A stretch of 64,000 nt of DNA from Trypanosoma brucei. Taxonomy: Eukaryota. The position numbers were made by a program, and so were the translations under genes. The DNA is taken from contig CP000069.1 of assembly GCA_000002445.1 (NCBI GenBank), positions 1,554,916 through 1,618,915 of the forward strand, given 5' to 3'. Shown one piece after another: positions 32,381-59,344 of this stretch. A model generated the notes under the pieces. That model ran no database searches. It was given only the letters and a program-made list of their open reading frames with translations, and was not told the origin of the DNA. How positions within the stretch are numbered: position 1 is the first letter of the stretch; each line of letters starts with the position of its first letter.

Positions 32381-32483
32381 TCCATCAAGAAAGAGCGGTA
32401 GCACAATTGAAAAATAAAAGATCAAAAGTCGTGACGCTTCACTGCTAGTAAAGAAAACAACATATTAGTAAGAGGAGAAATAT

Positions 32484-32506: not shown

Positions 32507-32657
32507 AAAAAAAAATTCAAGAGAAGAAAAGGAGAAAAATGTTAGCCATCGACAAAATAATTCACATGCGCAGACAGCCAAAAAAATAATGATATTATTT
32601 CCGGGGAACTTACGTGTTAAAATATTTCAAATTCAAGCAAGAAAAGTTGAGGGTATA

Positions 32658-34182
32658 TTAAAAAAGCATGGCCAACAAAGCAGCAGCCATACTCAGAGCC
32701 AATTTCTGATTCAGAAGAAAACTAGAAGAGCGGCACTTTTTTGTCTCTTTATCATCTTCACCATCTTTTCCCTTCCTCCATGCACAATTTTGCTTATCTC
32801 CTGTTTTGTCATTTTCAGAATCATGTTGATTTTGGTGCCTTGCACACCGAGATGAATCTGCTCTTGTTCCTGCTGCTGTTGGTGCTGATCTTGCTTTGGG
32901 TTTGTATTTTTTTTTTGCATCATAGTCACGGCCAGCCTTGTTGCAGTTATCTGGGCTAGCATGGTGTTTGTCGCATTCTTGTTTAATGCTAAGTTGCTTA
33001 CCTTCCCCTGGAGTTCCTGCTCTTGGTGAGCCGGCTGTTGCCTCCACTGCGTGGTTGCGGCCGTACTCGTGTTCGGCTTGTTTGGATAGGTTGTCTATGT
33101 CTTTTATAAGAAGCTGCTTTTGTGCCACTTGTTGCTTGTATTCGGAAAATAGTTTCTTTGCTGTTAGTAGATGCCCGATCCAGGCTATTTTCTAAAACCT
33201 TGTTGTGCCATCTTTGATCTGGTCCGTGTATTCAACGCAGACAATTGATGTCCCCGTGCAGACGTTGCCGTTGACTGTTCGGCCTATCCCGATCTTGTTC
33301 TGGTTGTCTGCTAACTGTCCCAGCTGGCCTAGAGATGCTGCTAGTGCGAGCGTTATGCCTTCATCCAGTTGCTTACCTAGATTCGTTTTGGGGCATTTGC
33401 TTATAAGAGTTTCTAGAGCAAATGCGTTAAGGTTGCTTCCTGTTAAGACGGTTCCTGCTATGTTGGTTCCTCCAGCACAGCTGTCCTGGTCATTGGTTAC
33501 TGCGCACAGAAAAAACATGTCGAACGCTATTGATTTTCCGGCGTTTTCTTTTGTGCACTGCAGCACCTTGGTTGTCGCCGTGTTGATGTCGCTACATACT
33601 GGGGCGGCTGCGGTGCCGATTAATGTTCCTGAGCAGAAAGCTTTGGTTAGTGCGTTGTTTATTGCGTTTCCGAGGGATTTACCGGTGCTGTCTCGGGGCT
33701 CCGTGTTTAGTTGTTCGAGCAAGTTCTGTGCTTCCTGGGTTGACATGTTTATGATGCTTATTTGGTAGTCTTTTAGGTTGCTGTTATGCTTGGGCCTGTC
33801 TTTGGCGTTCCAGTCGCTCGTCGGGTTGTTAACCGCCTCCGCGGCTGTTAGCCACCGCGACCATTGTTTTGACCAGTCCAGTCCTTTGGTTGAGTCGCTA
33901 TTGGCCTGCTTATACTTGCCCCACCCCTGTTTTGCCTCGGCTTTTTCAAACATTTTCCTCCAATCCGCTGGTGCTACCGACATGTTCAGCTTCAGTAGGC
34001 TGTCATAGCTTGGTGGCGCCGGCATTGGTGAGCAAGCAGGTAATTTCATGTTTTGAGTTACGTCGCATGCCAAGCAAAGGGAATGAAATGGGGCCTGGGC
34101 GCCCTTTGTCGGCTGGTTCACACAGGGGAGTTATCAGCAACGCCATTAGCGGCAGAAAGTATGGAGTTACACGCATCACCAT
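32658..34182 (-). pseudogene. VSG: VSG pseudogene. The signal-peptide frame, the 309-aa N-terminal-domain ORF (33192-34121) and the C-terminal-domain and GPI ORF (32658-33128) are in different frames.
   Basis: The signal-peptide region reads 'MRVTPYFLPLMALLITPLCEPADKG'. The N-terminal domain reads '...LLKLNMSVAPADWRKMFEKAEAK...' and is paralogous to the VSGs at 44688-46264 and 8808-10296. The C-terminus reads '...KKCRSSSFLLNQKLALSMAAALLAMLF*'. Confidence 0.8.
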
Positions 34183-34361
34183 CTTTATCTTTGTGAAAAA
34201 ACATTTAGGGCCGTTGTGTAATTTAGCGTTGGCGCCTGAAGATTTGTCGAGTTTACGAAACTTCTCAGTGGCGATGAGAGCTTGTTTAAAGGAAGTTTTT
34301 GATTTAGTCATGTGCTGCAGTGTGAGAGAATTCGGTTGTGTTAGATTTAAGTCACAACTTC

Positions 34362-35300
34362 TTAGCCTTGACAAAATCTTTTTCTACAACTGCGGCTCCA
34401 CAAATACTCCATATTCAATATACCATTTCCCACCATATATCCCATAACTTTGAATTTCCCCCAATGGTTCGTATTAAATTTCCTTCTCTCAAATTCTCTA
34501 TAACAACTAAGATTTTTTACAATAAGCTTTGCTTTTTCCTCCAATGCAATTAGTTGTTGTGTAAAATGAATGAATGGCGCCTCTTCGACTTCACTATGTG
34601 GAATAGTAAAAAATCTCTCATCAAAACTAATCGCTGAGCAACAGCTTCTTCCTGAATTGCACTCCATATTAGCAAAGATTTATAAATACTTTGTTACGAC
34701 CATTATTCTTCACTTCCTTTCGATAGGTCTTTAAAATCTAATTCAAATTTCTTAAACGCCAACTCTCTCGCTATCAAGCCAACACCACTAAGACAGTGTT
34801 TGCCACAAGAATTAGACTTCAGAAAATGAGGTATTTTTTATCCTATTCTTTCCTGTATCCAATATTTAAAAACAATACACATTTCTCCAACGCTCTTTGT
34901 GATCTGAATTATCGAGCAACTCTAACTGAGATGCATAACACTCTGATGTTGTCATGAATATAATAGTGTAAATTTGTTTCTCTTTGATGACATCTTCTTC
35001 ACTACCTTTTTCGTCATTAGCTGCACTATTTTGTATAACATATTCCACAGCATTCAAATACTTATCATGTTCGGATATTATATCAGCCGGTCCATCAACA
35101 GTAATGACAATATCCTCATCACTTGCATTCTGTTTTTCTAAAAATTCCATAACCCATCTAGGCCTTTTAATATGACTATACAACCATCCCATTTCAATTG
35201 TAATAATTTCAACATTTCTTACTTTGGCACTCAATATGAGTCTACACCATTCTTTAGTTGCATGAGTTTGTCACTACAACCACAAATACTCTTTGTTTTC
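34362..35300 (-). pseudogene. Fragmented pseudogene of a subtelomeric gene family, copy A, abutting the VSG start. It carries a DxD-type motif ('NASDEDIVITVDG') that suggests a UDP-sugar glycosyltransferase-like protein, but its identity is not confirmed.
   Basis: ORF 34866-35234 reads '...VEIITIEMGWLYSHIKRPRWVMEFLEKQNASDEDIVITVDGPADIISEHDKYLNAVEYVIQNSA...'. ORF 34362-34667 reads '...EAPFIHF...KLIVKNLSCYREFERRK...'. Both ORFs are paralogous to 46383-47420. Confidence 0.45.
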
Positions 35301-35834
35301 TCATGGTAATTCTGTGTTTGATTTGCCGTTGTTTCTCTTCAAGAGATATTGAGCTTAAATAAACTAAATGAAGCAAAAGTACAAAAATACTAAACTTAGT
35401 GCCCTAATCTATCTTTAAAATTTGATAGGGTTATAAGAAAAACTTATAAAAGCTTAATAAAAAATACAGTTTGGCCACTAATGTCTTTACATAAGCAATC
35501 CCTTGACATTGTTGTGATACAGCTGTTGAAGGGTCTGTACTTAGTGTTGGTGTCTTCCATTTGAGAAATCATTTACATTCTTTTAGTTTAAGAAGATAGC
35601 TTCAATTTCACCTAGTTAAGCACACTAATCTTTGACTATAACTCATTATCACCTCCATCATATCTTCGTTTACGATGAGATCCAATTGTCATATCGATGT
35701 TTAAATCCGCATATATTCAACATAAATGAGTCTTTTTTCCCCTTCCTCTCTCACTTACTCATTTACTTGTTGTTCACCGTTACCATTATTTTAAATGCTT
35801 TTATTTTTTCGTTGACTTAGTGTTCTTCACCGCT

Positions 35835-35905
35835 TATATTGTATTATTATTATGCACACTCACATCGGTTACTCATATTAATATTATTATAGTTTATATT
35901 ATAAT
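35835..35905 (-). repeat. 70-bp repeat unit, upstream of the module at 34362-35300 and its VSG.
   Basis: The sequence reads 'attattattatgcacactcacatcggttactcatattaatattattatagtttatattataattc'. Confidence 0.65.
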
Positions 35906-36137
35906 TCTAAGTAATATCATAAAAAACATAAAATAAACTACAAAAAACCCAATTAGAATAGCACTAATTTTTTATGCTCTATCACTGTTTTACTTTACAC
36001 TCAGAGGCCGATGTTACACGAATTTTTCTAAATTTTAAAATTTACGTTAAAAAGTGTTAAAATAGAAGACATTCTTATATTATAAAGCAGATTTTATTAA
36101 CTTCATAAAATTGAGCAAAAATATTTTATAAATTTAA

Positions 36138-37615
36138 TTACAAAAGCAAAAATGCAAGCCAAAGAGGGGCCTTATTAATGATAAAAGAATTTCTTTCTGT
36201 GGTGTTTGTGTTTGGAGCTGCTGTTGTAGTTTTTGCATGGTCTCCTCCGCATTTGCTATCTTTTAATTCACACTTTTCCCGGTTGCAGTCATCTTCTTTG
36301 TCCCTTTGCATTCGATACTGGTGGGTCTGTAGCGGTTATCGTCTTAATCTGCACTTGATTTGCATTCATACCGCGACAGAATGCTAGTGCTGTTGCGTAG
36401 CCACCACTTGTGGCGATAGCAGGTAATGATCGTTTCAGTTGATCGTCGCCGAGAGGGTTGGGAAGTTTGGTGTTAGACAACGTGTTGAGGAAAAGTTCCT
36501 TGACCTTTTTTGTTTTGTCGCCCAACAAATTTTCTACTTCTTTTTTAGGGTGTCTGTTGTTTGGGCTGTGGTCGCCTTGTCTGTTGTTACGAGCCACGCA
36601 GCTTTCTGGGAATCTCCGTCGTTGCTGAGCTCTGCGATTGTGTTATCTTGCAATGTAGGTGTTGTTTGGAAGACTAAGTTTTTCAGTTGGCGTATTACGT
36701 CTGCGGTTTGTGCTACTGTTAGTAATGTGGTCGCTGTGTGCCCGGTGTGTTCGGAGTTCTTGGTTGAGCTGCCTGGCGCCTGGCTCTGTTGCTTGGCTTG
36801 CAGTGTTGTCGCCGTCGTATAGCGTGTAATCGCCTTCACTCCCACATGGTGTGTGTTTTTACCAGCTCGTTAACCGCGTTGTTGCCGGCGGTGTCAGAGC
36901 CGCAGCCGATGCCCGTCCCGCCTAGTGGATGTTTGATATTTGCTCCTGCCCCGTGGTATGTTATAGTGATCTTGTAGTTTATGAATGCGAAGGCGTCGTC
37001 AGGTGTCAGCGACACTTGTGTTATCTCTGCGTGTCACCGTGCTGCTTCTTTGAGCTTGCTCTCCGTGCTTGAGTCTTGTGGGCATAGGTCTTGTTTTTCC
37101 TGCTTTGCATTGACATACGTGGTGCATGTCGCCGCTGTACCGCCTGTTGCCTTGTTCCCACTGTCGTTGTTTGTTTCGCTCGCCTTGGCCTTGGACACAC
37201 CTCCGGCTTGGTTCGCCATTAGCGCCGTTAGGGCTCCTAGCCGGCGATTTAGCAAGTTAAGTAGCGGGTCTATTGTCTGTTGGATGGTTTCTATCTCCCC
37301 CTGTAGCTTGGTTCTTCTTTTTTCTGCTGCTGCTACCAGTGCGAGATACTGTTGTTGCTGGCGCAGTGTGGCCATTGCGCAGGCTGCTAGTTCGAAAGTT
37401 TGTTGCTCTTTTTTAAGCTGGTCCAGGTTTGTTATTGGAGTTGCCAGCTTATCGGAAATGGCTGCTTGTGTCTCTCTGATGAATTTTATTTGCTGGTAAG
37501 GCGTGGTTATTGTCGCGGCTAGGACGCCCGCTGATTCTGCTGCCACGTTCCGTACCTGTGCTGCCAGTGCTGCTGCGAAGATTATTAAAGTCGCCGTGCT
37601 TTGATTGCAGGTCAT
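36138..37615 (-). pseudogene. VSG: VSG pseudogene. ORFs 37034-37615 (193 aa), 36534-36845 and 36289-36597 are separated by frameshifts, and a type-1-like C-terminal domain and GPI signal follow.
   Basis: The N-terminal region reads 'MTCNQSTATLIIFAAALAAQVRNVAAESAG...'. The C-terminus reads '...DCNREKCELKDSKCGGDHAKTTTAAPNTNTTERNSFIINKAPLWLAFLLL*'. Confidence 0.8.
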
Positions 37616-39095
37616 GTTTGTATGTGAAAAGCCGTTTGTCCGTTGCTTTTGTGCTGGAAAGGAGTTGGGAGCTTGTAATAATTTCTTTCTGAGCCACAGT
37701 TACTGTAGAGTATCGATTGTGGTAGTTCCACATTTGTTGCTAATGACAACCTTCCCATCCCTTTTAAATTAAATCTCATCTTTTTTAAACTTTGTTAAAG
37801 TCAGCGACTATCTTGTAGGGTTTGTATGATGACGGACCTATATATCGTTAAAAGACTGCTAATAGCTACAAATTTATCTCTTTTCGCTGGCTCCTCCCTC
37901 TAGTTCCAGGGTATCACGCTCTTTTCACGCCCTGTAGGTGAATTTATTCGATGCCTGGTGAGTGATGGCTGTCACTGCTTCTCCGAAGTCATCAATCAAA
38001 AGTCTTCTAGTATTAAATCTCCCATAATCAGTTTTCTCACTGGTTGCGCCGTTTTCCTTGCAAGGTCTGGGTAAATTTTAGTGATTGTCTCTGCATCTGT
38101 TTTACTACCATTTTTATTTACAACAGCCCCTCAAAAATAGCTTTCGTCATGCGGATCAGTGAATTGGCCTCGTAAATGGCTGTTTGTTTTCCTGGTAGCT
38201 CTCTTGAGTTTAGTTTTGCTGCTTGTCCTGAAAAGGTTTCTGCAGCTGTAAACCTTTTGATCCACCTAGTAGTTGCCATGTGCAAGCCACCTGATTCTGT
38301 CGGTACCATTTCCATTTACTATTACCTCTTTCGCTCTCACTAAACGACATAAGCCTGAAGAGACGATGAAATATTATTGAGAAAAAAGCGCATTTTTTTG
38401 GCTTCTGACTAATAGATTAGATACACCTAATTTATTAAGTCAGCTAGTTTTTAATCTAGTAAGTCAGGATATTAAGTTGTTGTTTCACATTTGCGGCTGA
38501 ATGTATTCTAGAAAACCACGAAGATAAGTACTCTATCTAAAAACCACAGCAATTTTCTAGAGTAGATACCACTATGATCCACTGTATCTACTTTATCTTG
38601 GGTCTAAATAACGGCTTCATTTTTTCTTTTCCTTTGGTATACTGATGCATTATTGGAATTGTTGCTGCTTCTGAACATGACGCTGGTGCCTTCACTTCTC
38701 ACAAGGTCGGGTGCAATCATCACCTGCTTATTTTTTTGTTTGTTGCTTGGCTTTGCTAATTCTTGTGCATATCACATAGAAAAGAACTGCAAGGTCTCTT
38801 CAAATGAATCATTCGTGCTGCACTTCTGTTTATTCATGATAATTCTTTTAGTGGAAATAGTGCAACCCTTCAAGAGCTTGTGGAAACATATTAGAAGTGT
38901 GTCACTTAGACGCATTCCACTTACATTGCTTCCATAGCATTAGTTTCAGTTCCTTTATTTATCCTGTACAATGCACTTAGCTACTTTCTCATCGTCCTCT
39001 CCATCACAATCTTGTGTGTAATGATGATGATGGTTATACTAATGTTTGTGTTTGAAAAAGAGCATACTAAATCCCCATTTTCCCTCTTTGTCTCA

Positions 39096-39118
39096 CACAC
39101 ACACACACACACACACTT
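39096..39118. repeat. (CA)n microsatellite.
   Basis: The sequence reads 'cacacacacacacacacacac'. Confidence 0.9.
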
Positions 39119-39184
39119 AATCTCACTAAACCTGTGCTGTTGTTTTTGTGCTTCTATTTTTGTGTCTCCTCGTTATGCACTATT

Positions 39185-39280
39185 ATTGCTCTCATAATAA
39201 TATTAAAATATACCCACTCACAACGTGATTGTATCATCATCATTATTATTATTATCATTTTTATTATAACACCACCAATG
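39185..39280 (-). repeat. 70-bp repeat unit, upstream of the VSG at 36138-37615.
   Basis: The sequence reads 'ataataatattaaaatatacccactcacaacgtgattgtatcatcatcattattattattatcatttttattat'. Confidence 0.75.
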
Positions 39281-39527
39281 AAAATAAAAATTAAATTAAA
39301 TTGGAATAGTACTAACTTTTCATACTATATAACGATACTACTTTGCATCGGCAGGAGATTTTTATACATAGTTTTTAGATGCTTTTAATTCTAAATTTTT
39401 AATGGTTTGAAAGAAGTGTTAAAATATAGAAAAGTTTAACAAATTTTATCAAATTATTAAAAACGGCATATTTCATAAGTTGAATAAATTGAGGAAATTG
39501 AAGAAAAACCCTAAAATCCTTAAAATT

Positions 39528-41060
39528 CTACCAAATCACAAAAGCAGAAGCCATACTCGGAGCCAATTTCTTATTGGGGAGAAAACTGGAATCTTTGCAT
39601 TTGTTTTCTTCCCATTTGCAACCAGCTTCCTTCTTGCAAACATCCTCCACTTTGCCTGTACATTTTTCTGTTGCTGTTTGTTCATTTCCTTTTGTTTCTC
39701 CCGCTTGGGTTTTCGCTTGTCCGACTTTTGTTGTATTCAATTTGCACTTTTTCTCTCCTTCTGTAGCCTTATCATTCCATTCACATTCTGACTTTAGGCT
39801 GCATTCTTCGGGGATAACTATTGCTTCACAATCTTTGCTGATATTGTTCGCTTGGTCCTTGTTGGCTGGTGTCAATATTTCTTGTGACGCTATGGGGGGT
39901 TTGGTTAAAGCTAAATGCGAGTAAAGTTTGTCAGCTTTGGCGCGCAATGCTTTCAGCTTGGTGTTTATTACCTTTGCGACAGTCGCTGCCTCTGATGCTG
40001 CGTCCAGTTTATTGGCTGCTTCTAATAGCTTCTCTTCCCACTGTATCTTTGTTGCTGTGCCTGTTGCTGCCAGCAGGGTTGATGCGCTCATGTCTACACA
40101 AGCGGCGCTCGCTTCCGCCCGGCAGTCGTGGTTGGTGCCCGCTGTCCCCAGAATTACGCTTTTGCCGCTGCCACCTCCCTTTGTCTTGTAGAGCCCTTTG
40201 AGCTGCGCTAGTAAACTGCGTATGTTGGCCCCTGTTGGTTTGACTGACGGCATCTTTAGGCAGTGCGGTTCAAGTTCCCTATACGCTGCTTTGACGCCGG
40301 CTTCATTCCAAGACGTAACATCCTGTGTTAGTGTCGCTCCGCAGACATCGGTGTTGGGCTGGTCCCCCGAGTTTTTTGCACACAGACACACCGAAACTAT
40401 GCAAAGAGCGTTGCCTGCTGTGGCTACTTTACAGTCAGCGGCCCTGTTGCCGCCTTTTGCCCCCGGGCATTTGTTTTCTGCTAAAGTTTCAGCCTTCCCT
40501 GCGCCGTACGCTGCTGTTTTTAGATCGTCCAGCACTTTCTGTTTCAGGTCTGTTAGTGCTGGTCTACTTTCCGCATCGAATCTTGCCTGAAGTGTTGCCG
40601 CCTCAGCTGCTATTGCTGCTGCAGCTAATGCGGCTGCCCGGCCTACGCTGCTCGTTTTTTGCATTGGTGAGATTTTTGCAGCCTTATTGTTTTTGTCTTT
40701 GTTTGCTAAGGAATGCGCTATGTGTTGCCATGCCAGCCATTGTTCCTGGCAGCTGTCTTTCGATTGGACGTCCTCACATCCTTTGGCTTCGGCCTTGGTT
40801 TTGATGCCGTCCGTCGGAAAGGCCTTAGTCCAATAGTCATCTGCTAACGAAAAGTTCACTTCGTTGATAGCGGCGATTTCATCTGTTTCGAGCTGGGCTG
40901 TTGGCATGTCGGTGCCATCGTCGTTGGCTATTTTTATTAGGGAGCACACCGTGGTTAGTTCAGCTAAATTTAATGCTTCACTGTCGGCTGCGTGCGAATA
41001 TCGGGTTGCTGCTACTACAAACAGGAGTAACACACTGGCGTGAGCTGGTATCAAAGTCAT
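39528..41060 (-). CDS. VSG: VSG with an apparently intact 510-aa ORF: signal peptide, N-terminal domain, two 4-Cys C-terminal subdomains and a GPI signal.
   Basis: The reading frame runs uninterrupted from 'MTLIPAHASVLLLFVVAATRYSHAADSEALNLAELTTVCSLIKIANDD...' to '...CTGKVEDVCKKEAGCKWEENKCKDSSFLPNKKLAPSMASAFVIW*'. The 16-mer at 39416-39431 lies downstream. The hydrophobic tail is slightly shorter than the canonical 23 residues. Confidence 0.8.
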   Translation of the reverse strand: MTLIPAHASVLLLFVVAATRYSHAADSEALNLAELTTVCSLIKIANDDGTDMPTAQLETDEIAAINEVNFSLADDYWTKAFPTDGIKTKAEAKGCEDVQSKDSCQEQWLAWQHIAHSLANKDKNNKAAKISPMQKTSSVGRAAALAAAAIAAEAATLQARFDAESRPALTDLKQKVLDDLKTAAYGAGKAETLAENKCPGAKGGNRAADCKVATAGNALCIVSVCLCAKNSGDQPNTDVCGATLTQDVTSWNEAGVKAAYRELEPHCLKMPSVKPTGANIRSLLAQLKGLYKTKGGGSGKSVILGTAGTNHDCRAEASAACVDMSASTLLAATGTATKIQWEEKLLEAANKLDAASEAATVAKVINTKLKALRAKADKLYSHLALTKPPIASQEILTPANKDQANNISKDCEAIVIPEECSLKSECEWNDKATEGEKKCKLNTTKVGQAKTQAGETKGNEQTATEKCTGKVEDVCKKEAGCKWEENKCKDSSFLPNKKLAPSMASAFVIW

Positions 41061-41379
41061 ATTTATTGTGTGTTGATGGTTATACGCTTAGATGCTTTGC
41101 ACTCTAAAATAGATGCGTTGGTTTCATTTCAAAGGAAGTTAGGGAACTCTTGAGGCGCCTTGCCGTGTACTTTGGCACTTACCCTCACGGGTTGGTACCT
41201 GTCGTTCATTTTTATCAGAAAAAGTTGTTCTTTATGCGTAGTGCTAATACTTCTTCCGGGTTTTGTGGGTGGTATCGCAACGATGCCTTGCCGCTGGAGG
41301 CTCAGATTTCCGCTTTGGCGTAAATTCCTTTTTAAAATTCTATACTCGTTGACTTTTTTAAATTTTCCACCGAGCAACC

Positions 41380-41960
41380 GTCAGGTCCATGCAGTCTGAC
41401 CAGCCGAGGGTAAGGCTTAAATGCATTTATCCGCACCACGCCGTGAGGACATGGTAGTGTGGGACTCAACGCTGGAGGCCAGCGTGCCTATCCACTAAAA
41501 CCCCCTTTGTTTCTTTGAGAATCGACACATACAGGTGGGCCACCGCATGTGTGCGATTCTAGGGGGCGTTGTCCATTTGCCGTCCATCCGATCCCTCCCA
41601 CATTGCATCTGAACCATGTTTACCATATCCATCTGCCTCCCCGGCCGGAAGTTGGGTCAGGGATTTTGGTTCCCCCACCTGAGCAGGGTACTGAACCGTG
41701 GTGCAACACTAAGTAATGGTTCTTTCTTCATGGAGCAGCCACAGCATATTCAGTATTGCAACCGACTTTTGGATGGAACATTTGGCTTTCCAGTCGATTT
41801 CTCTTCTGGTACGTGACCCTGGCGCCACATTGAGGCAGATTCATTCTTAGTGTAAGCTAAATAATCTGCGCCCGCGGGGATTCACCCAGGAATTATCTGC
41901 GACGAGCACTCTACTTAACCACTAAACCAGGGGCCGGTTAAGTTGCTGTTGTAGTCCGCG
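41380..41960 (-). mobile_element. GC-rich non-VSG block carrying a degenerate ingi/RIME-clade retroposon terminal signature on the minus strand. It is a likely truncated retroposon (ingi, DIRE or SIDER-like) and it truncates a VSG.
   Basis: The minus strand reads '...CTCAATGTGGCGCCAGGGTCACGTACCAG...'. The ingi 5' end at 62518 reads '...CTCAACATGGCGCCAGGGTCCAGTACCCCG...'. GC content is well above the flanks. The block ends abruptly at the VSG fragment boundary at 41960. Confidence 0.45.
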
Positions 41961-42592
41961 TAACACAAGCATGTTAAATCTTTTGCTACGGTTGTCACCT
42001 GGATTTTTTCTGAAGCCGAGTTGCACCGTTCCGTTCCTGTGCTGAACATCGGTTTCTTCGTCGCTTGTTGGGGTTGATCTCCCGACAGAGGGTGCTTTAG
42101 GTGTTGTCGTGGCGTTGTTACTAAAGCCTGTATCATAGCGTGAGTCAGCTTTTGCTGTCTACTCGGTTTTATGGCGCCCAGTTGCATTTGTTTTACGGCT
42201 GTTTCTGTCAGTTGTCGTTCTGGTTCGTCGCAGGTGCGTAAATATTTACGCTTTGCATCTGCTGCCTGTGCCTCTGGAAAACTTTGTTTTGTCTTCTGCC
42301 ATGTTTGTTTGCTAAAAGGTGAAAAAATTGGCGGCGTGAAATTAACTGTCAGCGTTGTTACAAAGTACAGTTCCTGTCCGTCGATGATCGCGTGTCGTGT
42401 GTCGGTTCGTGTTAAGTCTGTTGTGTTGGATTTCTATGAGGACGGCTTGTAAATTGCGCAGAAGAAAGAGAATTCTTTGCTGTTCTTTGTGGCCGCTGTG
42501 TTGGCCAGTGCCGCCGCCAATAGTAGTAACAACGATGTTGGTGCTGTAGCAAATACGCCATCTCCCGACTTTTCATGTCCGTATCTGTTCAT
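41960..42592 (-). pseudogene. VSG: VSG 5' fragment (signal peptide plus partial N-terminal domain) truncated by the retroposon-like block.
   Basis: The signal region reads 'MNRYGHEKSGDGVFATAPTSLLLLLAAALANTAATKNSKEFSFFCAIYK...'. The continuation reads '...QKTKQSFPEAQAADAKRKYLRTCDE...QMQLGAIKPSRQQKLTHAMIQALVTTP...'. Confidence 0.55.
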
Positions 42593-44084
42593 CCCTAGCT
42601 TTCAGTCGGGACTTGCAAACTCTGGGGGTTCAGAAACGGAAAAATAGTTGAGTGGCCCCAGTGTCTACAATAAAGTCCACTGCTTTTCTTTCAAGCTGCT
42701 GTTGTTTACCGCGCGTGGCTTTTAGATTGATGAATACGATTTGTATCCATTCACATTATTTCTAGCCGCCTATATCCCTCATCTATGAAATATCGTCTTT
42801 CGACACCCTATTTTTCCACTAAAATAAAAGCTTTATATTCTCACTATTACTTGCCACCGCTTGAAATCAATACATAACATGAAAATCACACGACAGAATA
42901 AAAAACAGTCACCACCATCATCTCTGTTGCACCCATTCATTTTTTGTGATGTGGTGTTTTCTTTTGAGTGCCCATGGTACTTCCATCCGCCGCATCATAT
43001 GTGACTTCGTAATTTCGGCCCCCAGTTTCGCCACTTCTTCCATTTCATACTTTATGTGCTTCATTCTGGGCCTTGAGAATGATTAATTCTAAACATTGAA
43101 GAGGAGTATCTGTTGTTCTCTTCCTAGGAACTTCTTACATTTGTAACGTAGATTGTCATTGGTCTTTCATTTGTTCCATTTTTAAATAATTATCTGATAG
43201 CTGTCGATTTCTTGCACGTGAGCGACACAAAAGCTACAACAGGATAAAAGTCTCATGAGAAATGGCTCATCTATTCTGACTTATTCCCTCTGTGTTAGAT
43301 TCACTTGTATTATTTAAAGTCACCTTGTTTTTAATCTACTAAATAAGCTATTTAAGTTGTGCCTACACACCTCTAATTGCATGGCCCCAGAAAAACAATG
43401 AAATGCTTCGTTCTATCGAATATTTTTACCAACTCTACTGTGCATAGGGTGTTAATAAGGTTAAATGCTTCTACACTGCCTTTTAATGCAATAATTTTAT
43501 TTTTGTCTCTTTTCATTTGCCATTTCTATGGTTTTCCGGATAGTTTTCAAAATCTTTAAATGTTGTGATATTTTTTGAGCTTTACACGTATGTTTAGGTA
43601 CAATCATTCTCTGCATACTTGTTCACTTCTCTCAAGTTCCAAATTCTGTTCATAGCTGCACTCTCACAAGAATTACACGTAATTTATTAGCTACACTTTC
43701 TGCATTAGATAGTTTTTTTCCATAATGCTGCTTTCAGTAGAAATAATGCATTCTTCGAGGAATTCTCAGTAACATGTGGGAAATAGTAGGCTTAGTCTCT
43801 TGCCACACTCACTGCTTCTCCGTTGCAAATTTAGAAGCTTAATTTGTCTTCAAAACTGTACTCTGTCTTTTCATCATCTTACCGTGTATAACAATGAGCA
43901 GTTCCATGTTATTGTTTGACACTCCACATATTCTGTCTCCTTTTTCTTTTCTTTACGCCTTTCTTAATAATATTATCCGTTCCCTCCCCTTTCCCTCTTA
44001 CTCACTGTCCCTCCTACTCACTTTGATTTCGCACTTACCACTGTTCAAATATTTTATTTTTTTCTGTCCATATAGTCTTCATAC

Positions 44085-44455
<371 letters not shown>

Positions 44456-48578: not shown

Positions 48579-50087
48579 CTACAAACTCACAAAAGCAGCA
48601 GCCATCAGATAAATTTTCTTAGTTACAAGAAAACTGGAAGAGCGGCATCCAGGAGTTACCGGACCAGTGTCTTCGACATAAGTAATCAATTCACAAAAGG
48701 CTTTCTTTCCTGTTGGAATTGTTCCAGTTATTTTGGCGCAATCCTCATGGGTCTGTGTGGCAGAGCATTTGTTTTCTGAAGCTGCTCCTAGTTTGATTTC
48801 TACCTTCCCTTTCTTTTTGTGCGTGCAAGTCTCTTTTTCCTTATCCCATTCGCAATCTCCTGTGCATTCAGTTCCCTTTTTTCCACTGCATTGTTTTTCT
48901 GCCGATTGATCGTCACCAGAAGCCGCTTGTCGTGCTTGTGCTTCGGCAGCTATTTGTTTGACGAGGCCTCTAGCTGTGGCCTCACCGACTGCTGTTAGTG
49001 TTTCTAGGTTTTCTATTTTTGTTGCTTGCTCTTTCTTCTGATCGCCGAGGTAAGCTGGCGTTCTTTCAATTGCCTTCCAAAGTTACTCCTCAAATTTTGT
49101 GCCTTCGGTACCGTAGTATTTTGTTATTGCTGTCGTTAATTCTGGGGCTTTTGACTCTTGGCCCTCTTCCGCTTCTGTTTTGCCGATAAGTGCTTTTGTT
49201 ACCATCGAATTGAATTTGCTGTTGGCTGCGATGGTTGCGAAGTCGCGAATTCTTTTGGTACATGCGGGCGCTGGATTGGTGTTTTTTAATCCTTTTATCG
49301 CTGTATTGGCTTCTGTATTTAGGTTGCCGATGAAGTCTACCTCTGCGGCCGATATCGCTTTTGCGCTGGCTGTATCTGTTAGCCAGGTGGCCTTAGCGTC
49401 TGTTGGAGATCCATCATAGATCAGTTTTACTTCGAATTTTCCGTTCTGTTGTAGGTTGCTTGTGGCCTGGCATCCGTTTCTGACTGTTCCGTCCCGCTGA
49501 CATCGTGCCTGCACATGTGCGTGCGTTATGACTTTGGCTGTCGCCTTCTCGTTGTCGATGTTCGTTTTGTCGATTGTCGCCGCATCCAGGGTGTTAAGGT
49601 CGTCTGCGCAACCCTTTTTGTTGATGTTTCCTAGGTTAGCTTTGGGTACTTCCTTGGCGGTGTTGATGTTGGTGTCGTCTTGTATGTGCAGCTGCAGTTC
49701 GCCGTTGCCCTCTTTTAGCTTCTGTTGCACGTCGTATAGTGCACGCAGTTCGGCCACATTTTTTTCTGCATCGAGAATTGCCGGTCTTGCTGTCGTTAAC
49801 GCTTCTTCGCAGTCGTTGATGATCTCTGCTGCCGACAGCAGTACTGGTGCTAATTTTGTCCTTAGGTTGCTGCTTCCTAGGACGGCCGCTGCGATGAGCT
49901 TGCCGAAGTCTTTTTTGTTTTCTTTTAGGTTTGCTTCGGCTTCCGAGTAATCGCCTCTGTAGACGTCTATTTGTTTTTCAAGTCTTTCCCAGCAGCCGCA
50001 GTTTGTGCTACAGGCTGTTGCATCGGGTGTCGCGGCCGTGGTGGCTACCGCTACCGCCAGTAGAGCGATTATCGCGTTATTGCACAT
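48579..50087 (-). pseudogene. VSG: VSG with a 334-aa N-terminal-domain ORF (49083-50087). The C-terminal domain and GPI signal are in shifted frames.
   Basis: The signal-like region reads 'MCNNAIIALLAVAVATTAATPDATACS...'. The tail in another frame reads '...CRSSSFLVTKKIYLMAAAFVSL*'. Confidence 0.8.
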
Positions 50088-51714: not shown

Positions 51715-52265
<551 letters not shown>

Positions 52266-52554: not shown

Positions 52555-54068
52555 TTATAGAGTCAAAACTCCAAGCAAAAGAGAAACCTTTTGAATGACA
52601 AAATAATTGCTTCCTGTGGTGTTTGTTTTACCATCTGTCCCTGTTGTTGTGGTCACTTTAGCTTGGCACTTTTCTTCTTTGAATTCACACCCATCTTCAT
52701 CTTTGCACTCACCCTGCGGTTTACCCTTGCAATTTTCTTCTATTTATTTTGATCCGCTGTTACTGTGGGTTCACGTTTCTTTTGTGTTTCAACCTTTCTA
52801 GTGTTTCTTATTCCCTCGACATCGCTTAGCGCCGCTGTTGCTTCTTCTGTTGTTATTCTGTTTTCTCCTTTCTTTTCTGTTTGGCTGGCGGTGCGGACAC
52901 TTGCCTTCATTGTACTTAGTGGTGTTTGAATACTTTCTGGGAATTTGTTTGCGTCAGTGCCATATCCTGATCTAATGAACTCGATGACCACTGCCTTGTT
53001 GTGTTCGGCATTATTGTTGTCTTTGACACCCTGCAGTGCTGGCATGCAGTTTCGCACATCCACCCGTAGTTTCTCATCGTCTTTTAGTGCCCCTCCGCTT
53101 AGACCTGTAGGTGTATTAACCGTGATTGAGTGTGCTTTCAGGGCTTTGCACAGGTGGTGCTGCAGGTTTTTGTTGTCGTCGAGTTCAGCGTGTTCCGTTA
53201 AAGGTGGCTGCTGGCATTCTTTGTCGGGGTCGTGTTGCTTAAATAGAGCTGTGGATGTGTCTGTATATTCTGGTTTGCTGTCTGCTTGGGCACCTGTTAA
53301 GGTCTTACTGCCTTTCCCGGTGCAGCCGTTTATGGCTGTCGTGAAGGTTGAGCTATAGCCCGCTGCGCTGCTGCAGGAGGTTAGAGTACCTAGCGTTATG
53401 TGTTGCTTGAAGAGATTTTTGATTAGTTGTTTTCTGTCTGTTAGTTTGATTTCTTTTAGCTTATGTGGCTTGATTGCCGGGTGTTGGGGGCTTATCTGTG
53501 ATAGCTTCGTCACTTTGTCGCACAGTTCCGTTGTCCCGCTTTCTGTTTCGAGCTGTATTCGGCTGCTGCTGCTGCTGCTGCCGCCGTTGCCGTGCACGTT
53601 TCCTGTGTCGAGTTTTAGCGTCGTTTTTGCCAGTGCCGTTGTCGCTTTTAGGACACCTATGTGCTCCGAAATCGCTAGCATTGCTGCCTCCACGTCGTTA
53701 TTTGCCTGCCTCACTCGTGCCTTCTGTTCTTGGTGGAGTCTTCGGAACTTGTGGTGGAGCGCCATGTAGAGACAGCGCTTGTCCATGGTGTCTGCAATCC
53801 CGGCTGCTATTTTATATTGCTGCGCATCTGAGCTTATCTGTTCGATGTTCGTGGTCCTTTGTTCATTCCCTTGTTTGAGCAACTTGACCAGCTCCTTTAG
53901 GTTAAGCTGCTCGTGGAATACCGACTTAAAAGAATCCGCTGACTCATTATTGGTTTCTATCGGTGAGGCATCGCTTCCGGTAAAGGTTACCAGCAAAAAC
54001 AGCAACACTGCGGTGCACCGCGTTGGTTGTCTGGTGGTCGTCTTTTCGACCCGAACGCACTTCATCAT
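52555..54068 (-). pseudogene. VSG: VSG with a 442-aa ORF (52740-54068). A stop plus a +1 frameshift separate it from a type-1-like C-terminal domain and GPI signal.
   Basis: The N-terminal region reads 'MMKCVRVEKTTTRQPTRCTAVLLFLLVTFTGSDAS...'. The C-terminal region reads '...ADQNK*' then 'EENCKGKPQGECKDEDGCEFKEEKCQAKVTTTTGTDGKTNTTGSNYFVIQKVSLLLGVLTL*'. Confidence 0.8.
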
Positions 54069-55115: not shown

Positions 55116-55813
55116 AATAAACCAAATAAGAAAATTTCATAATGGCACTCATTTTTCATACACTTTCAGCCTAATACGTTACAACTATAGAACACGTTTA
55201 TACACATTTTTATAAATCTATGTTTTAACTATTTTCACTAATTTGCAGATTTTAATTAAAAATTGTTAAAATATACTAAAATGTAGCAAAATGGGAAATT
55301 ATATAAATTTCATAAAATTGAACAAAAATCCTCATAATTTTAGAATTTTAAAATGCCACAAAACTTACAAAAGTAGCAGCTATAAGAGATAATTTATTAT
55401 TGACGGAGAGACTATTATTCCGACACCTAAGCTTGTCCTTATCATTGTCACCTTCGCCTCCTTTTTTCCATCCACAATGCTTTTCACCATCCTTGTTTGC
55501 TTCCTCACAAACTCTCTGGGTTGTATGCTTACTGCAATATACACTGGTATTTGGCCCTCCAGCTTCTTTGTTTGCTTTTTCGAGCTCAGCTTTTACCTTT
55601 TTTTTCAACTCTCACTTTTTGCCAGTTTCGCCATCGGTATTAAAAACGCACTAATTTTTTCTAGTTTTTTACAAGCGCATTCGCTGTCCCATGCTTTATT
55701 GCATTCTTCCTATACTTTTCCTGCATTTTTCTTGTTCGTTTGGTAGCTCAGCATATTGAGTTCTTCGGTATTCACTGATAATTTTTCCTGATTTGTGTTT
55801 GATAATAAAAGAG

Positions 55814-55822
55814 GGCTGAGTT
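55814..55822. repeat. IS10 target-site duplication, left copy (GGCTGAGTT).
   Basis: This 9 bp is identical to 57152-57160 and directly flanks the IS10 termini. It fits the IS10 hotspot consensus NGCTNAGCN in 8 of 9 positions. Confidence 0.95.
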
Positions 55823-57151
55823 CTGATGAATCCCCTAATGATTTTGGTAAAAATCATTAAGTTAAGGTGGATACACATCTTGTCATATGATCAAATGGTT
55901 TCGCGAAAAATCAATAATCAGACAACAAGATGTGCGAACTCGATATTTTACACGACTCTCTTTACCAATTCTGCCCCGAATTACACTTAAAACGACTCAA
56001 CAGCTTAACGTTGGCTTGCCACGCATTACTTGACTGTAAAACTCTCACTCTTACCGAACTTGGCCGTAACCTGCCAACCAAAGCGAGAACAAAACATAAC
56101 ATCAAACGAATCGACCGATTGTTAGGTAATCGTCACCTCCACAAAGAGCGACTCGCTGTATACCGTTGGCATGCTAGCTTTATCTGTTCGGGCAATACGA
56201 TGCCCATTGTACTTGTTGACTGGTCTGATATTCGTGAGCAAAAACGACTTATGGTATTGCGAGCTTCAGTCGCACTACACGGTCGTTCTGTTACTCTTTA
56301 TGAGAAAGCGTTCCCGCTTTCAGAGCAATGTTCAAAGAAAGCTCATGACCAATTTCTAGCCGACCTTGCGAGCATTCTACCGAGTAACACCACACCGCTC
56401 ATTGTCAGTGATGCTGGCTTTAAAGTGCCATGGTATAAATCCGTTGAGAAGCTGGGTTGGTACTGGTTAAGTCGAGTAAGAGGAAAAGTACAATATGCAG
56501 ACCTAGGAGCGGAAAACTGGAAACCTATCAGCAACTTACATGATATGTCATCTAGTCACTCAAAGACTTTAGGCTATAAGAGGCTGACTAAAAGCAATCC
56601 AATCTCATGCCAAATTCTATTGTATAAATCTCGCTCTAAAGGCCGAAAAAATCAGCGCTCGACACGGACTCATTGTCACCACCCGTCACCTAAAATCTAC
56701 TCAGCGTCGGCAAAGGAGCCATGGGTTCTAGCAACTAACTTACCTGTTGAAATTCGAACACCCAAACAACTTGTTAATATCTATTCGAAGCGAATGCAGA
56801 TTGAAGAAACCTTCCGAGACTTGAAAAGTCCTGCCTACGGACTAGGCCTACGCCATAGCCGAACGAGCAGCTCAGAGCGTTTTGATATCATGCTGCTAAT
56901 CGCCCTGATGCTTCAACTAACATGTTGGCTTGCGGGCGTTCATGCTCAGAAACAAGGTTGGGACAAGCACTTCCAGGCTAACACAGTCAGAAATCGAAAC
57001 GTACTCTCAACAGTTCGCTTAGGCATGGAAGTTTTGCGGCATTCTGGCTACACAATAACAAGGGAAGACTTACTCGTGGCTGCAACCCTACTAGCTCAAA
57101 ATTTATTCACACATGGTTACGCTTTGGGGAAATTATGAGGGGATCTCTCAG
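55823..57151 (+). mobile_element. IS10: Complete bacterial insertion sequence IS10 (Tn10-type, IS4 family), 1329 bp, inserted into trypanosome VSG DNA. It is almost certainly an E. coli cloning-host artefact.
   Basis: The outside end reads 'CTGATGAATCCCCTAATGATTTTGGTAAAAATCATTAAG...'. The inside end reads '...GAAATTATGAGGGGATCTCTCAG'. The length is exactly 1329 bp. A 402-aa transposase ORF is present. A perfect 9-bp target-site duplication flanks the element. The Dam site GATC lies in the pIN region at ~55894. Confidence 0.97.
55930..57138 (+). CDS. tnpA: IS10 transposase (402 aa), intact.
   Basis: The ORF reads 'MCELDILHDSLYQFCPELHLKRLNSLTLACHALLDCKTLTLTELGRNLPTKARTKHNIKRIDRLLGNRHLHKERLAVYRWHASF...THGYALGKL' and matches the known IS10 Tnp sequence from memory. 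Its codon usage and composition differ from the surrounding VSG DNA. Confidence 0.97.
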   Translation: MCELDILHDSLYQFCPELHLKRLNSLTLACHALLDCKTLTLTELGRNLPTKARTKHNIKRIDRLLGNRHLHKERLAVYRWHASFICSGNTMPIVLVDWSDIREQKRLMVLRASVALHGRSVTLYEKAFPLSEQCSKKAHDQFLADLASILPSNTTPLIVSDAGFKVPWYKSVEKLGWYWLSRVRGKVQYADLGAENWKPISNLHDMSSSHSKTLGYKRLTKSNPISCQILLYKSRSKGRKNQRSTRTHCHHPSPKIYSASAKEPWVLATNLPVEIRTPKQLVNIYSKRMQIEETFRDLKSPAYGLGLRHSRTSSSERFDIMLLIALMLQLTCWLAGVHAQKQGWDKHFQANTVRNRNVLSTVRLGMEVLRHSGYTITREDLLVAATLLAQNLFTHGYALGKL

Positions 57152-57160
57152 GGCTGAGTT
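57152..57160. repeat. IS10 target-site duplication, right copy (GGCTGAGTT).
   Basis: Identical to 55814-55822. Confidence 0.95.
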
Positions 57161-59344
57161 CAGTTTCTTGAGATCGGTTATTGACTTTAGCGCCTTTGGT
57201 GTGAAGGCTCCTGTCGCTTCCGCCCGTATGTCTGTTTCTTCAATTTTTCCCCATAGCTGTTTGTGCCATCCGCTGCCTGTCTTGTTGCAGAGTTGTGTCG
57301 CTTCTTCGTCAACTGACGATGGACTTGTTTGGCGCAATACCTGTATGTAGTGCGGAATGTGCTTGCTAGTGATCAGCTCTTCATTTTTTTGGTTACCGTG
57401 CCTGTCGCATGCGCAGAAAGTTTCCGTTTCTAGTTGCTTCAGCTTAACCACAGCGAATTTGAGCTTTGACAAGATGTCACCGTCCTCGTCGCTGCCGTCG
57501 GCTTTCAATTGAGTCAGCGCAGCGCCTCTGCTAGTTATTTTCACTAGCCCGGTGGCTAACGTTAACTTGCTTGCCTGTGCGGCTCCGGATCCGTGTATCC
57601 AGTTGTCTCCGTCCGTCGCATCGGTTAGAGGACATGCTTTGGCACCGCTCTTTGTGTCTGAGCCCACTGTTGTTGCTTTTCCTTGTAGTGCGCTATGTAC
57701 TGGCTTTTTTGTTTTTGTGGAAGCTTCTATCTCCTCTTTTGGTCCTGTTAAACAGCCGTCCAGCAGTGTTTCCAGTTTGGATGTTTCTAGTGCCGTGTCT
57801 GCCGTACTTTCCGCTACACAGCCATGGCTTGTGTCCCTTTTGGATTGTTGGAACAAACGCCAGAAGCAGTGAATGTCGTCAGCGGCAAATTCTACTGTGG
57901 CGACGTAGTGAACGGCTTTGTTTAAGATACCTTTTTCCGTCGATTTGAGTTCGCCGACAGCGTCTGACATTGCTACTTCCAGAATTTTGCATGCTGTGTA
58001 TTGTTATATGTGTCCTGCTTGATGGCTTCGTAGATTTCGAGCTTTTTGGCTTTTTTTTGAACCTTAGAGTGAGCCGAGGCGGCGTCTTTAATTAACATGA
58101 GAGCAAGCTGTGGCGCTTTGCTTAGTTCCGCCTCCAACGTACATGTCGGCGCCCACACAGTCTACTCAATTGCCCCTTTCGATACCGCACCGATGACCGC
58201 TGTAGTCGCCAGTACGAAGGCGATGATAGTGGCTGCTACTGTCTTCTGCAGATTCATTTTTTTCTTTGTTTTAGGCACGGTTTACGGAACCGTTTTGGGT
58301 ATAGCTTAGAGGTTTGCGTCTAGTAAATCAGTTTATCAATTTATTTTCGAGTTTTTTCACCCATAAGAATTTTATAGGTGTCGTTAAGTGGATTGTTTAC
58401 CGTGTTATGTTGCGATATGCGACTGGAGACTTCTTGGATATGCTGTGTGCCATCGCATTGTTTTCCTTTTGAAACTGTCTCTTCCAACTATTTACTTAGC
58501 ACAACTGATTCGTCCTCGAAGTTGAAGCCCTTAATAGAGTTTAAAGGGCTCACTGCACAGCGAGCCCTTTAAACTCTGGTGTACTTTCTCAAATTCATTA
58601 CGTTGTTGGCTTGGTTAGGCATCTTCTAAATGCAACGGCGATGGGTTTAGTTGAGTTTTCAACTTTTAAAAAGGCACCTGTTGGTGTCGAAGAAAATTCC
58701 GCTTCTTAATCTATTCTGAACCTTTCTATATATATTCATGTGTAAAACATTTATCCTTCATTTATTTAATGGCTTCTATCAGCTGTTAATTTTCCGCCGG
58801 CGTTTCGGCTTGGAATAGAATGACAGTGCTGTTTATTCCCCTGACGACGTTCAACCTTTGTTCTTTGCTTATTCTCAGTAAGCAGGTTCTTGTAGTACCA
58901 TCGTTTAAGGCTGGGTACTTTTAATGCTTAAATCTCTTTTTGTTCTTCTTTCTTTTCACTGATACATTCTGTTAGTGATAACTCTGCGATTACCCTCATG
59001 TGAATTATGATTTTTTGAAAACTTTTATGGTTTTAGTTTTACACCAATACGGCAGTAGTGGTGTACTATCATCGACTCTCCTCACTCTATACATATCCTC
59101 CATCTACCCTACATGCACTAATTTAATCAATTACGCATTATTATTATTCTTCTTGTTTCCACAATAATCCGGTGGTAGTCTTAGTTTAAAAACTCCTTCT
59201 AGATAACATAGTACATTTTCCCACAAATGTTATCCATTTTCTATAAATATAATGAGAAAACTTAGGCATTATCTCATACTTCCTCACTTGCTCCTTCTTT
59301 ACTTTTACCTTTGTCTTTACTGCTTCTATTCTGTACATCCATTT

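What the first reader, a model, noticed from the sequence alone, without database searches (positions are those of the whole stretch)
55814..57160. Intact E. coli IS10 with a perfect 9-bp target-site duplication inside a trypanosome VSG pseudogene, most likely a cloning-host transposition artefact
The segment 55823-57151 is exactly 1329 bp and begins and ends with the IS10 outside and inside terminal inverted repeats. It encodes the full 402-aa IS10 transposase. Identical GGCTGAGTT copies flank it and match the IS10 insertion hotspot consensus. When the element and one duplicate copy are removed, the flanking sequences join into a single minus-strand VSG reading frame. IS10 is a bacterial insertion sequence with no business in a kinetoplastid chromosome, but it is known to hop from E. 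coli K-12 cloning strains into BAC, cosmid or plasmid inserts. The clean duplication shows the insertion happened in vivo by transposition and is not a chimeric assembly join. Genome annotations would otherwise call the region a 'hypothetical protein' or a horizontally transferred transposase.
Basis: partly seen in the sequence, partly recalled or inferred. Interest (0 to 1): 0.85.

Follow-up and report, generated by a model that had tools for sequence, protein, structure and literature searches.

The report
E. coli IS10 cloning artefact in trypanosome genome
A complete bacterial jumping gene (IS10), base-for-base identical to a copy carried by the E. coli cloning strain DH10B, sits inside a dead surface-coat gene of the Trypanosoma brucei reference genome; it almost certainly jumped in while the parasite DNA was being grown in E. 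coli, so it is a known kind of sequencing artefact, not parasite biology.

Summary
Window 55823-57151 is a complete 1329-bp IS10. It has outside and inside ends, the 402-aa DDE transposase, the RNA-OUT antisense gene and both dam sites. It is flanked by the only two copies of GGCTGAGTT in the window. It is 1329/1329 identical to many E. coli copies, including the IS10-Right-type copy at nupG in cloning strain DH10B. No other part of the window matches E. coli.

The window is a minus-strand VSG array of T. brucei brucei TREU927 (one ORF is XP_845638.1). Removing IS10 plus one repeat copy restores '...KKLNSAL|FYYQTQIRKNYQ*'. An independent T. brucei VSG entry (ARB50979.1, 92% identical) has this peptide uninterrupted.

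One correction: the restored frame stops 12 codons after the junction, because the VSG was already a pseudogene with frameshifts and stops.

This is a long-known class of artefact. Its practical interest is that the transposase seems to be annotated as a trypanosome protein, very probably XP_845639.1. A 2026 preprint treats that entry as an 'active catalytic DDE transposase' driving antigenic variation. Absence from uncloned parasite DNA could not be tested here.

The parts
55814..55822 (.). Left copy of the 9-bp target-site duplication GGCTGAGTT. On the minus strand it reads AAC TCA GCC = Asn-Ser-Ala of the VSG frame.
   Evidence: identical to 57152-57160, and these are the only two copies in the window; 5/6 match to GCTNAGC, full match to NRCNNNGYN.
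55823..57151 (+). Complete IS10 (IS10-Right type; 'ISVsa5' in NCBI naming), 1329 bp, 44% G+C against 39% for the rest of the window.
   Evidence: 100% identity over the full length to E. coli records; match boundaries are exactly 55823 and 57151 in five independent bacterial loci; 0 mismatches to the DH10B nupG copy. IS10 copies in ER2796 are also 1329 bp.
55823..55845 (+). IS10 outside-end terminal inverted repeat (CTGATGAATCCCCTAATGATTTT).
   Evidence: 17/23 complementary to the other end. 5'-CT end as listed for the IS10 subgroup (PMC2266710).
55868..55937 (-). RNA-OUT antisense RNA gene of IS10. It overlaps the start of the transposase mRNA.
   Evidence: Rfam RF00240, 98.8 bits (gathering score 41), E=6.3e-21, full model 1-70.
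55930..57138 (+). IS10 transposase gene, 402 aa, intact.
   Evidence: DDE_Tnp_1 PF01609, E=1.5e-24; the exact protein is on record in 15382 blocks of bacterial assemblies; the exact sequence is named 'IS4-like element ISVsa5 family transposase [Bacteria]'.
57129..57151 (-). IS10 inside-end terminal inverted repeat (CTGAGAGATCCCCTCATAATTTC on the minus strand), containing a dam GATC site.
   Evidence: GATC at element positions 67 and 1320.
57152..57160 (.). Right copy of the 9-bp target-site duplication GGCTGAGTT.
57152..58257 (-). 5' part of the interrupted A-type VSG pseudogene: signal peptide and most of the N-terminal domain. It has an in-frame stop and a frameshift of its own.
   Evidence: PF00913, E=1.7e-16 and 8.2e-9; tblastn of P0002 in two frames; coordinates.
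55348..55822 (-). 3' part of the same VSG pseudogene: end of the N-terminal domain, a frameshift after ...QTQIRK, a stop, and the C-terminal domain with GPI-signal tail ...FVSFVAF.
   Evidence: (PF10659 Trypan_glycop_C, E=1.2e-12).

Best explanation
An active IS10 (IS10-Right type), resident in the chromosome of the E. coli K-12 strain used to propagate cloned T. brucei TREU927 DNA, transposed by its normal cut-and-paste mechanism into the trypanosome insert. DH10B, the usual BAC host, is the most likely strain. The element landed at the consensus-like site GGCTGAGTT inside an already defective A-type VSG gene and duplicated those 9 bp. The clone carrying it was sequenced, the insertion entered the chromosome consensus, and the transposase ORF was annotated as a trypanosome protein.

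Shown: the identity and completeness of the element, its exact boundaries and duplication, its identity to a DH10B copy, the trypanosome nature of both flanks, and the continuity of the flanks in related VSGs.

Inferred: that the jump happened in the cloning host, and in a large-insert clone rather than in the parasite.
For: 1) Full IS10 anatomy: 1329 bp, outside and inside ends, 402-aa DDE transposase, RNA-OUT, two dam sites, 9-bp duplication.
2) 100% nucleotide identity to E. coli IS10. Zero mismatches to the DH10B copy at nupG, while the other two DH10B copies I found differ at 16 and 10 positions.
3) E. coli similarity begins and ends exactly at the element ends. The remaining 62.7 kb has no E. 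coli match.
4) The window is T. brucei brucei TREU927. ORF 39528-41060 equals XP_845638.1/AAZ12079.1 and also AAX79080.1, a second GenBank protein accession for the same sequence. Ten of the long minus-strand ORFs carry VSG domains.
5) With IS10 and one repeat removed, tblastn of two independent T. brucei VSGs gives single ungapped alignments across the junction. ARB50979.1 (92% identity) ends with the identical '...KKLNSALFYYQTQIRKNYQ'. In the window as given, the alignment is split exactly at the element, with the NSA codons present twice.
6) The site matches IS10 target preference; 0.36% of window positions do as well.
7) Literature: IS10 is present in DH10B, DH5alpha, JM109 and XL strains and inserts into cloned DNA (PMC4574204, PMC2758499). 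IS10 is the most frequent E. coli IS in shotgun reads of other organisms, 68 of 109 IS-containing reads (PMC2891674). An intact IS10 in a spruce BAC was interpreted the same way (PMC2729077).
Against: No raw reads, PCR or uncloned TREU927 DNA could be examined, so absence from the parasite genome is not directly shown. The library and host strain for this chromosome were not retrievable from the held literature; BAC-by-BAC sequencing in DH10B rests on my own knowledge of the TREU927 project. IS10-Right is identical in very many enterobacteria, so identity to DH10B does not single out that strain. The related VSGs spanning the site are 92% and 56% identical, so they come from other genes or strains and are not the same locus.
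Confidence: 0.96

Rival explanations
1. Genuine horizontal transfer: IS10 really resides in the T. brucei TREU927 chromosome, having entered the parasite from an enterobacterium, for example in the tsetse gut.
For: The insertion has a proper target-site duplication, so it was made by a transposase and not by mis-assembly. Absence from uncloned DNA was not tested. A 2026 preprint treats the corresponding protein as a trypanosome transposase, but offers no evidence on origin.
Against: Zero differences in 1329 bp from the copy in a laboratory cloning strain. It is a single element in the window, with bacterial promoters and a bacterial antisense control RNA intact. PMC2266710 (2008) reported that no IS4-related element had so far been found in eukaryotes. 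Related T. brucei VSGs lack it at this point. The same exact protein also appears as a 'human' cDNA-clone protein in UniRef, which shows how readily this artefact enters eukaryotic records.
Confidence: 0.01
2. Assembly or contamination artefact without transposition: E. coli reads contaminating the shotgun data were wrongly merged into the trypanosome contig.
For: E. coli host DNA commonly contaminates clone preparations. PMC2729077 reports 21-28% of reads removed as vector or bacterial.
Against: A chimeric join would not stop exactly at both IS10 termini, would bring adjacent E. coli chromosomal DNA, and would not create a perfect 9-bp direct repeat of trypanosome sequence. None of the flanking DNA matches E. 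coli. The boundaries are the canonical ends. A chance 9-bp match at fixed positions has probability about 4e-6, and the repeat occurs nowhere else in the window.
Confidence: 0.01
3. Same artefact but a different step: the insertion arose in a small-insert shotgun subclone or in another E. coli host carrying IS10 (DH5alpha, JM109, XL-type), not in the large-insert clone in DH10B.
For: IS10 copies exist in several cloning strains and insert into pUC-type plasmids (PMC4574204, PMC2758499). IS10-Right is identical across many strains.
Against: An insertion in one small subclone would affect only a minority of reads and would normally be out-voted in the consensus, so its presence in the finished sequence points to the template clone itself (inference). 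The sequence is identical to a DH10B copy.
Confidence: 0.02

Closest known systems
IS10-Right of Tn10 (IS4 family, IS10 subgroup; NCBI name 'ISVsa5')
   Same: Identical in every respect tested: 1329 bp, outside and inside ends, 402-aa DDE transposase, RNA-OUT, dam sites at positions 67 and 1320, 9-bp duplication at an NGCTNAGCN-like site, and 100% nucleotide identity.
   Different: Only its location: inside a trypanosome VSG pseudogene instead of a bacterial replicon.
Documented IS10 cloning artefacts in eukaryotic clones: tobacco R8.3 repeat (Kovarik et al. 2001, cited in PMC2758499 and PMC4574204), spruce BAC PGB04 (PMC2729077), ATRX cDNA (PMC4021028), shotgun reads (PMC2891674)
   Same: An intact IS10 with a 9-bp duplication in cloned eukaryotic DNA propagated in K-12 hosts such as DH10B. 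The same exact transposase is even filed as human protein Q6AW98 from a cDNA clone.
   Different: Here the insertion survived into a finished reference chromosome and its protein set. It is now apparently being read as parasite biology.
A-type VSG pseudogenes of T. brucei subtelomeric arrays
   Same: The interrupted host gene has PF00913 and PF10659 domains, a signal peptide, a GPI-signal tail, and frameshifts and stops. It lies in a same-strand array of VSGs.
   Different: It carries a bacterial IS, which native VSG pseudogenes do not.

Membership tests
IS10 (IS4 family, IS10 subgroup) | Length about 1329 bp, with 5'-CT termini and imperfect terminal inverted repeats | tested here: met
   1329 bp, CTGA... 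at both ends, 17/23 complementary; 1329-bp IS10 copies in ER2796; subgroup table gives 1200-1350 bp and CT ends.
IS10 (IS4 family, IS10 subgroup) | Single intact DDE transposase of 402 aa | tested here: met
   (PF01609, E=1.5e-24); the exact sequence equals the bacterial ISVsa5/IS10 transposase.
IS10 (IS4 family, IS10 subgroup) | 9-bp target-site duplication at a site resembling NGCTNAGCN / NRCNNNGYN | tested here: met
   perfect 9-bp repeat, 5/6 of the strict consensus, full match to the relaxed consensus (consensus from PMC4574204).
IS10 (IS4 family, IS10 subgroup) | RNA-OUT antisense regulator opposite the transposase start | tested here: met
   RF00240, 98.8 bits, full length, at 55868-55937 (-).
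IS10 (IS4 family, IS10 subgroup) | Near-identity to reference IS10-Right as opposed to IS10-Left | tested here: met
   0 mismatches to the DH10B nupG-proximal copy, against 16 and 10 mismatches to the other two DH10B copies found. Assigning these as Right, Left and hybrid rests on my own knowledge of Tn10.
Cloning-host transposition artefact | Element identical to a copy resident in a standard E. coli cloning strain | tested here: met
   NC_010473.1 (DH10B) 3199469-3200797, 1329/1329.
Cloning-host transposition artefact | Bacterial similarity confined to the element, with host-organism DNA on both sides | tested here: met
   no E. coli match in the rest of the window. VSG sequence on both flanks.
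Cloning-host transposition artefact | Related host sequences lack the insertion (empty site) | tested here: met
   ARB50979.1 (92% identity) and VSG 1125.2596 (56% identity) align without a gap across the junction once IS10 plus one repeat is removed. These are related genes or strains, not the same locus.
Cloning-host transposition artefact | Insertion absent from uncloned genomic DNA of the same strain | not testable with these tools
   No T. brucei reads or clone-free TREU927 assembly were reachable. The restored ORF was not found in the protein collection. The T. equiperdum locus L015 loses synteny before the site.
Cloning-host transposition artefact | The sequence was obtained from E. coli-propagated clones | not testable with these tools
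   Indirect only: the neighbouring VSG has two GenBank protein accessions, AAZ12079.1 and AAX79080.1. That fits separate clone-level and chromosome-level records. BAC-based sequencing of TREU927 is from my own knowledge.
Trypanosome A-type VSG (pseudogene) | PF00913 N-terminal domain and PF10659 C-terminal domain, disrupted by stops or frameshifts | tested here: met
   PF00913 E=1.7e-16 and 8.2e-9, PF10659 E=1.2e-12; three reading frames are needed and in-frame stops are present.

The most novel reading that the evidence does not exclude
IS10 truly integrated into the T. brucei TREU927 genome in nature or in culture: a very recent bacterium-to-kinetoplastid transfer of an intact insertion sequence into a VSG array.
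Probability: 0.01. Interest if true: 0.8.

Novelty: already known. Interest (0 to 1): 0.2.

Why it matters
As biology it does not matter. It is a textbook IS10 cloning artefact.

As data hygiene it does matter. The insertion sits in a widely used reference chromosome, and its transposase appears to be in the T. brucei protein set, very probably as XP_845639.1. That is the accession right after the VSG XP_845638.1, which lies in this window, and it has the same Pfam domain and a near-identical E-value.

A 2026 preprint (bioRxiv 10.64898/2026.06.15.732286) cites XP_845639.1 and XP_843700.1 as 'active catalytic DDE transposase' domains. It builds a model of transposase-driven antigenic diversification on them. 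If these entries are E. coli IS insertions, that part of the model has no basis.

The entry should be flagged or removed from the reference. XP_843700.1 should be checked in the same way.

Tried and rejected
1) Exact-protein look-ups to locate the window's contig or an empty-site contig. The interrupted 287-aa ORF and XP_845638.1 gave no contig on record. The restored 286-aa ORF had no 100% hit in the protein collection.

2) Synteny route to an empty site in a clone-free assembly. The T. equiperdum contig QSBY01000018.1 (L015) matches window 31395-44193 at only 85-88%, and synteny ends about 11 kb short of the insertion. Homologues of the neighbouring VSG (52740-54068) have no orthologous contig.

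3) Direct proof that XP_845639.1 is this ORF. The cluster look-up for the transposase lists names but no accessions for the exact sequence, and the preprint's supplements are not held. The link remains an inference.

4) Literature on the TREU927 library and host strain. The DH10B genome paper, the chromosome II paper and Astua-Monge 2002 are not held. 'RPCI-93' gives no hits. Other papers were uninformative.

5) Chimeric assembly was considered and rejected because of the exact termini, the 9-bp duplication and the absence of flanking E. coli DNA.

6) My first guesses for DH10B IS10 locations (4.54-4.59 Mb and the recA/srl region) held no IS10. Copies were found at opgB and on both sides of the nupG inversion.

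Full report
**What is in the sequence**

- Window 55814-55822 and 57152-57160 both read GGCTGAGTT. These are the only two occurrences on either strand of the 64-kb window.
- The 1329 bp between them begin CTGATGAATCCCCTAATGATTTTGG... and end ...GGGGATCTCTCAG. The two ends are imperfect inverted repeats, 17 of the first 23 positions.
- One long ORF (55930-57138, + strand, 402 aa) carries the DDE_Tnp_1 domain at E=1.5e-24.
- Opposite its start, on the minus strand at 55868-55937, Rfam finds a full-length RNA-OUT at 98.8 bits against a gathering score of 41.
- GATC sites lie at element positions 67 and 1320. From my own knowledge of IS10, these are the dam sites in the transposase promoter and at the inside end.
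- G+C is 44% in the element and 39% in the rest of the window.

**Identity of the element**

- Megablast against all complete E. coli genomes gives 100% identity over positions 1-1329. 2423 records are hit, and 2100 of them have a best place at >=99%.
- The exact 402-aa protein is on record in 15382 blocks of bacterial assemblies. It is named 'IS4-like element ISVsa5 family transposase [Bacteria]'.
- In five independent bacterial insertion sites the identity starts and stops exactly at window 55823 and 57151.
- I then located IS10 copies in the cloning strain DH10B (NC_010473.1). One lies at opgB, and two flank the inverted segment at nupG. Only part of that chromosome was inspected.
- The copy at 3199469-3200797 is identical to the window element at all 1329 positions. 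The other two differ at 16 and 10 positions. By my reading these are the IS10-Left type and a Left/Right hybrid.
- The element in the window is thus the active IS10-Right type, exactly as carried by a standard cloning host.

**The surroundings**

- The rest of the window has no megablast match to any E. coli genome.
- The long ORFs are nearly all on the minus strand, and ten of them carry VSG domains: A-type PF00913, B-type PF13206, C-terminal PF10659.
- ORF 39528-41060 is identical to XP_845638.1 / AAZ12079.1 / AAX79080.1, 'variant surface glycoprotein (VSG, atypical), putative [Trypanosoma brucei brucei TREU927]', on a contig of 1,618,915 bp.
- The window is therefore a subtelomeric VSG array of the T. 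brucei reference strain.

**The interrupted gene**

- The gene is an A-type VSG on the minus strand, from about 58257 down to 55348.
- On that strand the duplicated 9 bp read AAC TCA GCC (Asn-Ser-Ala), in frame.
- Deleting IS10 and one repeat copy gives '...SITDLKKLNSAL|FYYQTQIRKNYQ*'.
- A search of the protein collection with this restored ORF found two T. brucei VSGs:
  - ARB50979.1 (92% identical) ends with exactly the same '...KKLNSALFYYQTQIRKNYQ'.
  - VSG 1125.2596 (56% identical) reads '...KELNSALFYYQTQIRKKLSVTTEELNK...'.
- By tblastn both align as one ungapped segment across the junction of the restored sequence. In the window as given, the alignment breaks exactly at the element, and the NSA codons are used twice.
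- This is empty-site evidence from related sequences, not from the same locus.
The frame is continuous across the junction but stops 12 codons later.
- The gene needs three frames and contains in-frame stops, for example 'GAIE*TVW' and 'GKV*EEC'. It was a pseudogene before IS10 arrived. ARB50979.1 shares the premature '...NYQ*' end, which suggests that this defect is old.

**Target choice**

- The consensus hotspot for IS10 is NGCTNAGCN, and a relaxed consensus NRCNNNGYN was derived from many insertions (PMC4574204; PMC2758499).
- GGCTGAGTT matches 5 of the 6 specified hotspot bases and matches the relaxed form fully.
- Only 0.36% of 9-mers in the IS-free window do as well on the strict form, and 1.2% fit the relaxed form.
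- Together with the perfect 9-bp duplication (chance about 4e-6 at fixed positions), this shows a genuine transposase-made insertion, not a mis-join.

**How it got there**

- The best explanation is cut-and-paste transposition of IS10 from the chromosome of the E. coli host into the cloned trypanosome insert. The clone was then sequenced.
- The literature documents this repeatedly:
  - IS10 is present in JM109, DH5alpha, DH10B and XL-2 Blue and inserts into cloned DNA (PMC4574204).
  - It inserts into plasmids in DH10B (PMC2758499).
  - It is the commonest E. coli IS found in shotgun reads of other organisms, 68 of 109 IS-containing reads (PMC2891674).
  - An intact IS10 in a spruce BAC was explained in the same way (PMC2729077).
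- The same exact transposase sequence is also filed in UniRef under a human cDNA-clone name, Q6AW98_HUMAN, in a cluster of 189 entries with taxon 'root'.
- From my own knowledge, this TREU927 chromosome was sequenced from BAC clones in DH10B. I could not confirm that in the held literature.
- The neighbouring VSG has two GenBank protein accessions. That fits separate clone-level and chromosome-level records.

**Rivals**

- True horizontal transfer into the parasite cannot be formally excluded without uncloned DNA. It would require an element with zero differences from a laboratory strain's copy, and PMC2266710 (2008) reported that no IS4-related element had so far been found in eukaryotes. I give it about 1%.
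- Chimeric assembly of contaminating E. coli reads is excluded by the exact termini, the duplication of trypanosome sequence and the absence of adjoining E. coli DNA.
- Whether the jump happened in the large-insert clone or in a subclone, and in which IS10-bearing strain, cannot be decided here.

**What could not be done**

- No T. brucei reads or clone-free TREU927 assembly are reachable with these tools.
- Exact-protein look-ups gave nothing.
- A T. equiperdum contig is only 85-88% identical to part of the window and loses synteny before the site.

**A consequence worth flagging**

[quoted passage not shown] - XP_845638.1 is the VSG at 39528-41060 in this window.
- The two long ORFs between that VSG and IS10 are not in the protein collection as exact sequences, which fits unannotated pseudogenes.
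- The next protein-coding ORF is the IS10 transposase, which scores E=1.5e-24 on the same Pfam family.
- XP_845639.1 is therefore very probably this E. coli transposase. This is an inference from accession order plus the domain match. I could not retrieve the record.
- XP_843700.1 deserves the same check.

**Verdict**

This is an already known kind of artefact. Scientific novelty is low. Practical value is moderate, because the artefact sits in a reference genome and is already being interpreted as parasite biology.

Noticed in passing
window 55930-57138 (+); literature: bioRxiv 10.64898/2026.06.15.732286 cites XP_845639.1 and XP_843700.1 as T. brucei 'active catalytic DDE transposase' (PF01609, E=2.2e-24). 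XP_845638.1 is the VSG at 39528-41060 of this window, so XP_845639.1 is very probably this IS10 transposase. XP_843700.1 may be a second IS artefact elsewhere in TREU927.
   Followed up: partly
window 55930-57138 (+): The exact 402-aa IS10 transposase sequence carries the UniRef100 name 'Uncharacterized protein DKFZp686P13170 ... Q6AW98_HUMAN', with n=189 members and taxon 'root', plus the name 'hypothetical protein'. The same artefact is evidently filed under several non-bacterial organisms.
   Followed up: no
window 51758-52217: A perfect (TTA)153 trinucleotide array, 460 bp with 100% matches, lies between two VSG genes. It is probably part of the TAA-rich repeat region upstream of VSGs (my reading, not tested).
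   Followed up: no
window 49083-50087 (-) and 52740-54068 (-): Two long minus-strand ORFs (334 and 442 aa) have no Pfam hit at E<=0.001. The 442-aa ORF is nevertheless 94% identical to a T. brucei entry named variant surface glycoprotein (A0A1V0FZL4) and 72% identical to VSG 1125.1229. It is a VSG type that the Pfam models miss.
   Followed up: partly
L015 (T. equiperdum QSBY01000018.1:163750-184316) vs window 31395-44193: This T. equiperdum region is colinear with the window at only 85-88% identity and loses synteny at about window 44200. The 188-aa T. equiperdum VSG fragment clusters at >=90% with XP_845638.1 and occurs at about six similar places.
   Followed up: partly
L014 (DH10B NC_010473.1:3170000-3219999) and L012 (4636138-4686137): The three IS10 copies found in DH10B are not identical to one another. 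The copy at 3199469-3200797 is the IS10-Right type and equals the window element. The copy at 3211929-3213257 differs at 16 positions, and the copy at opgB differs at 10, all within the first 903 bp, so it looks like a Left/Right hybrid.
   Followed up: yes
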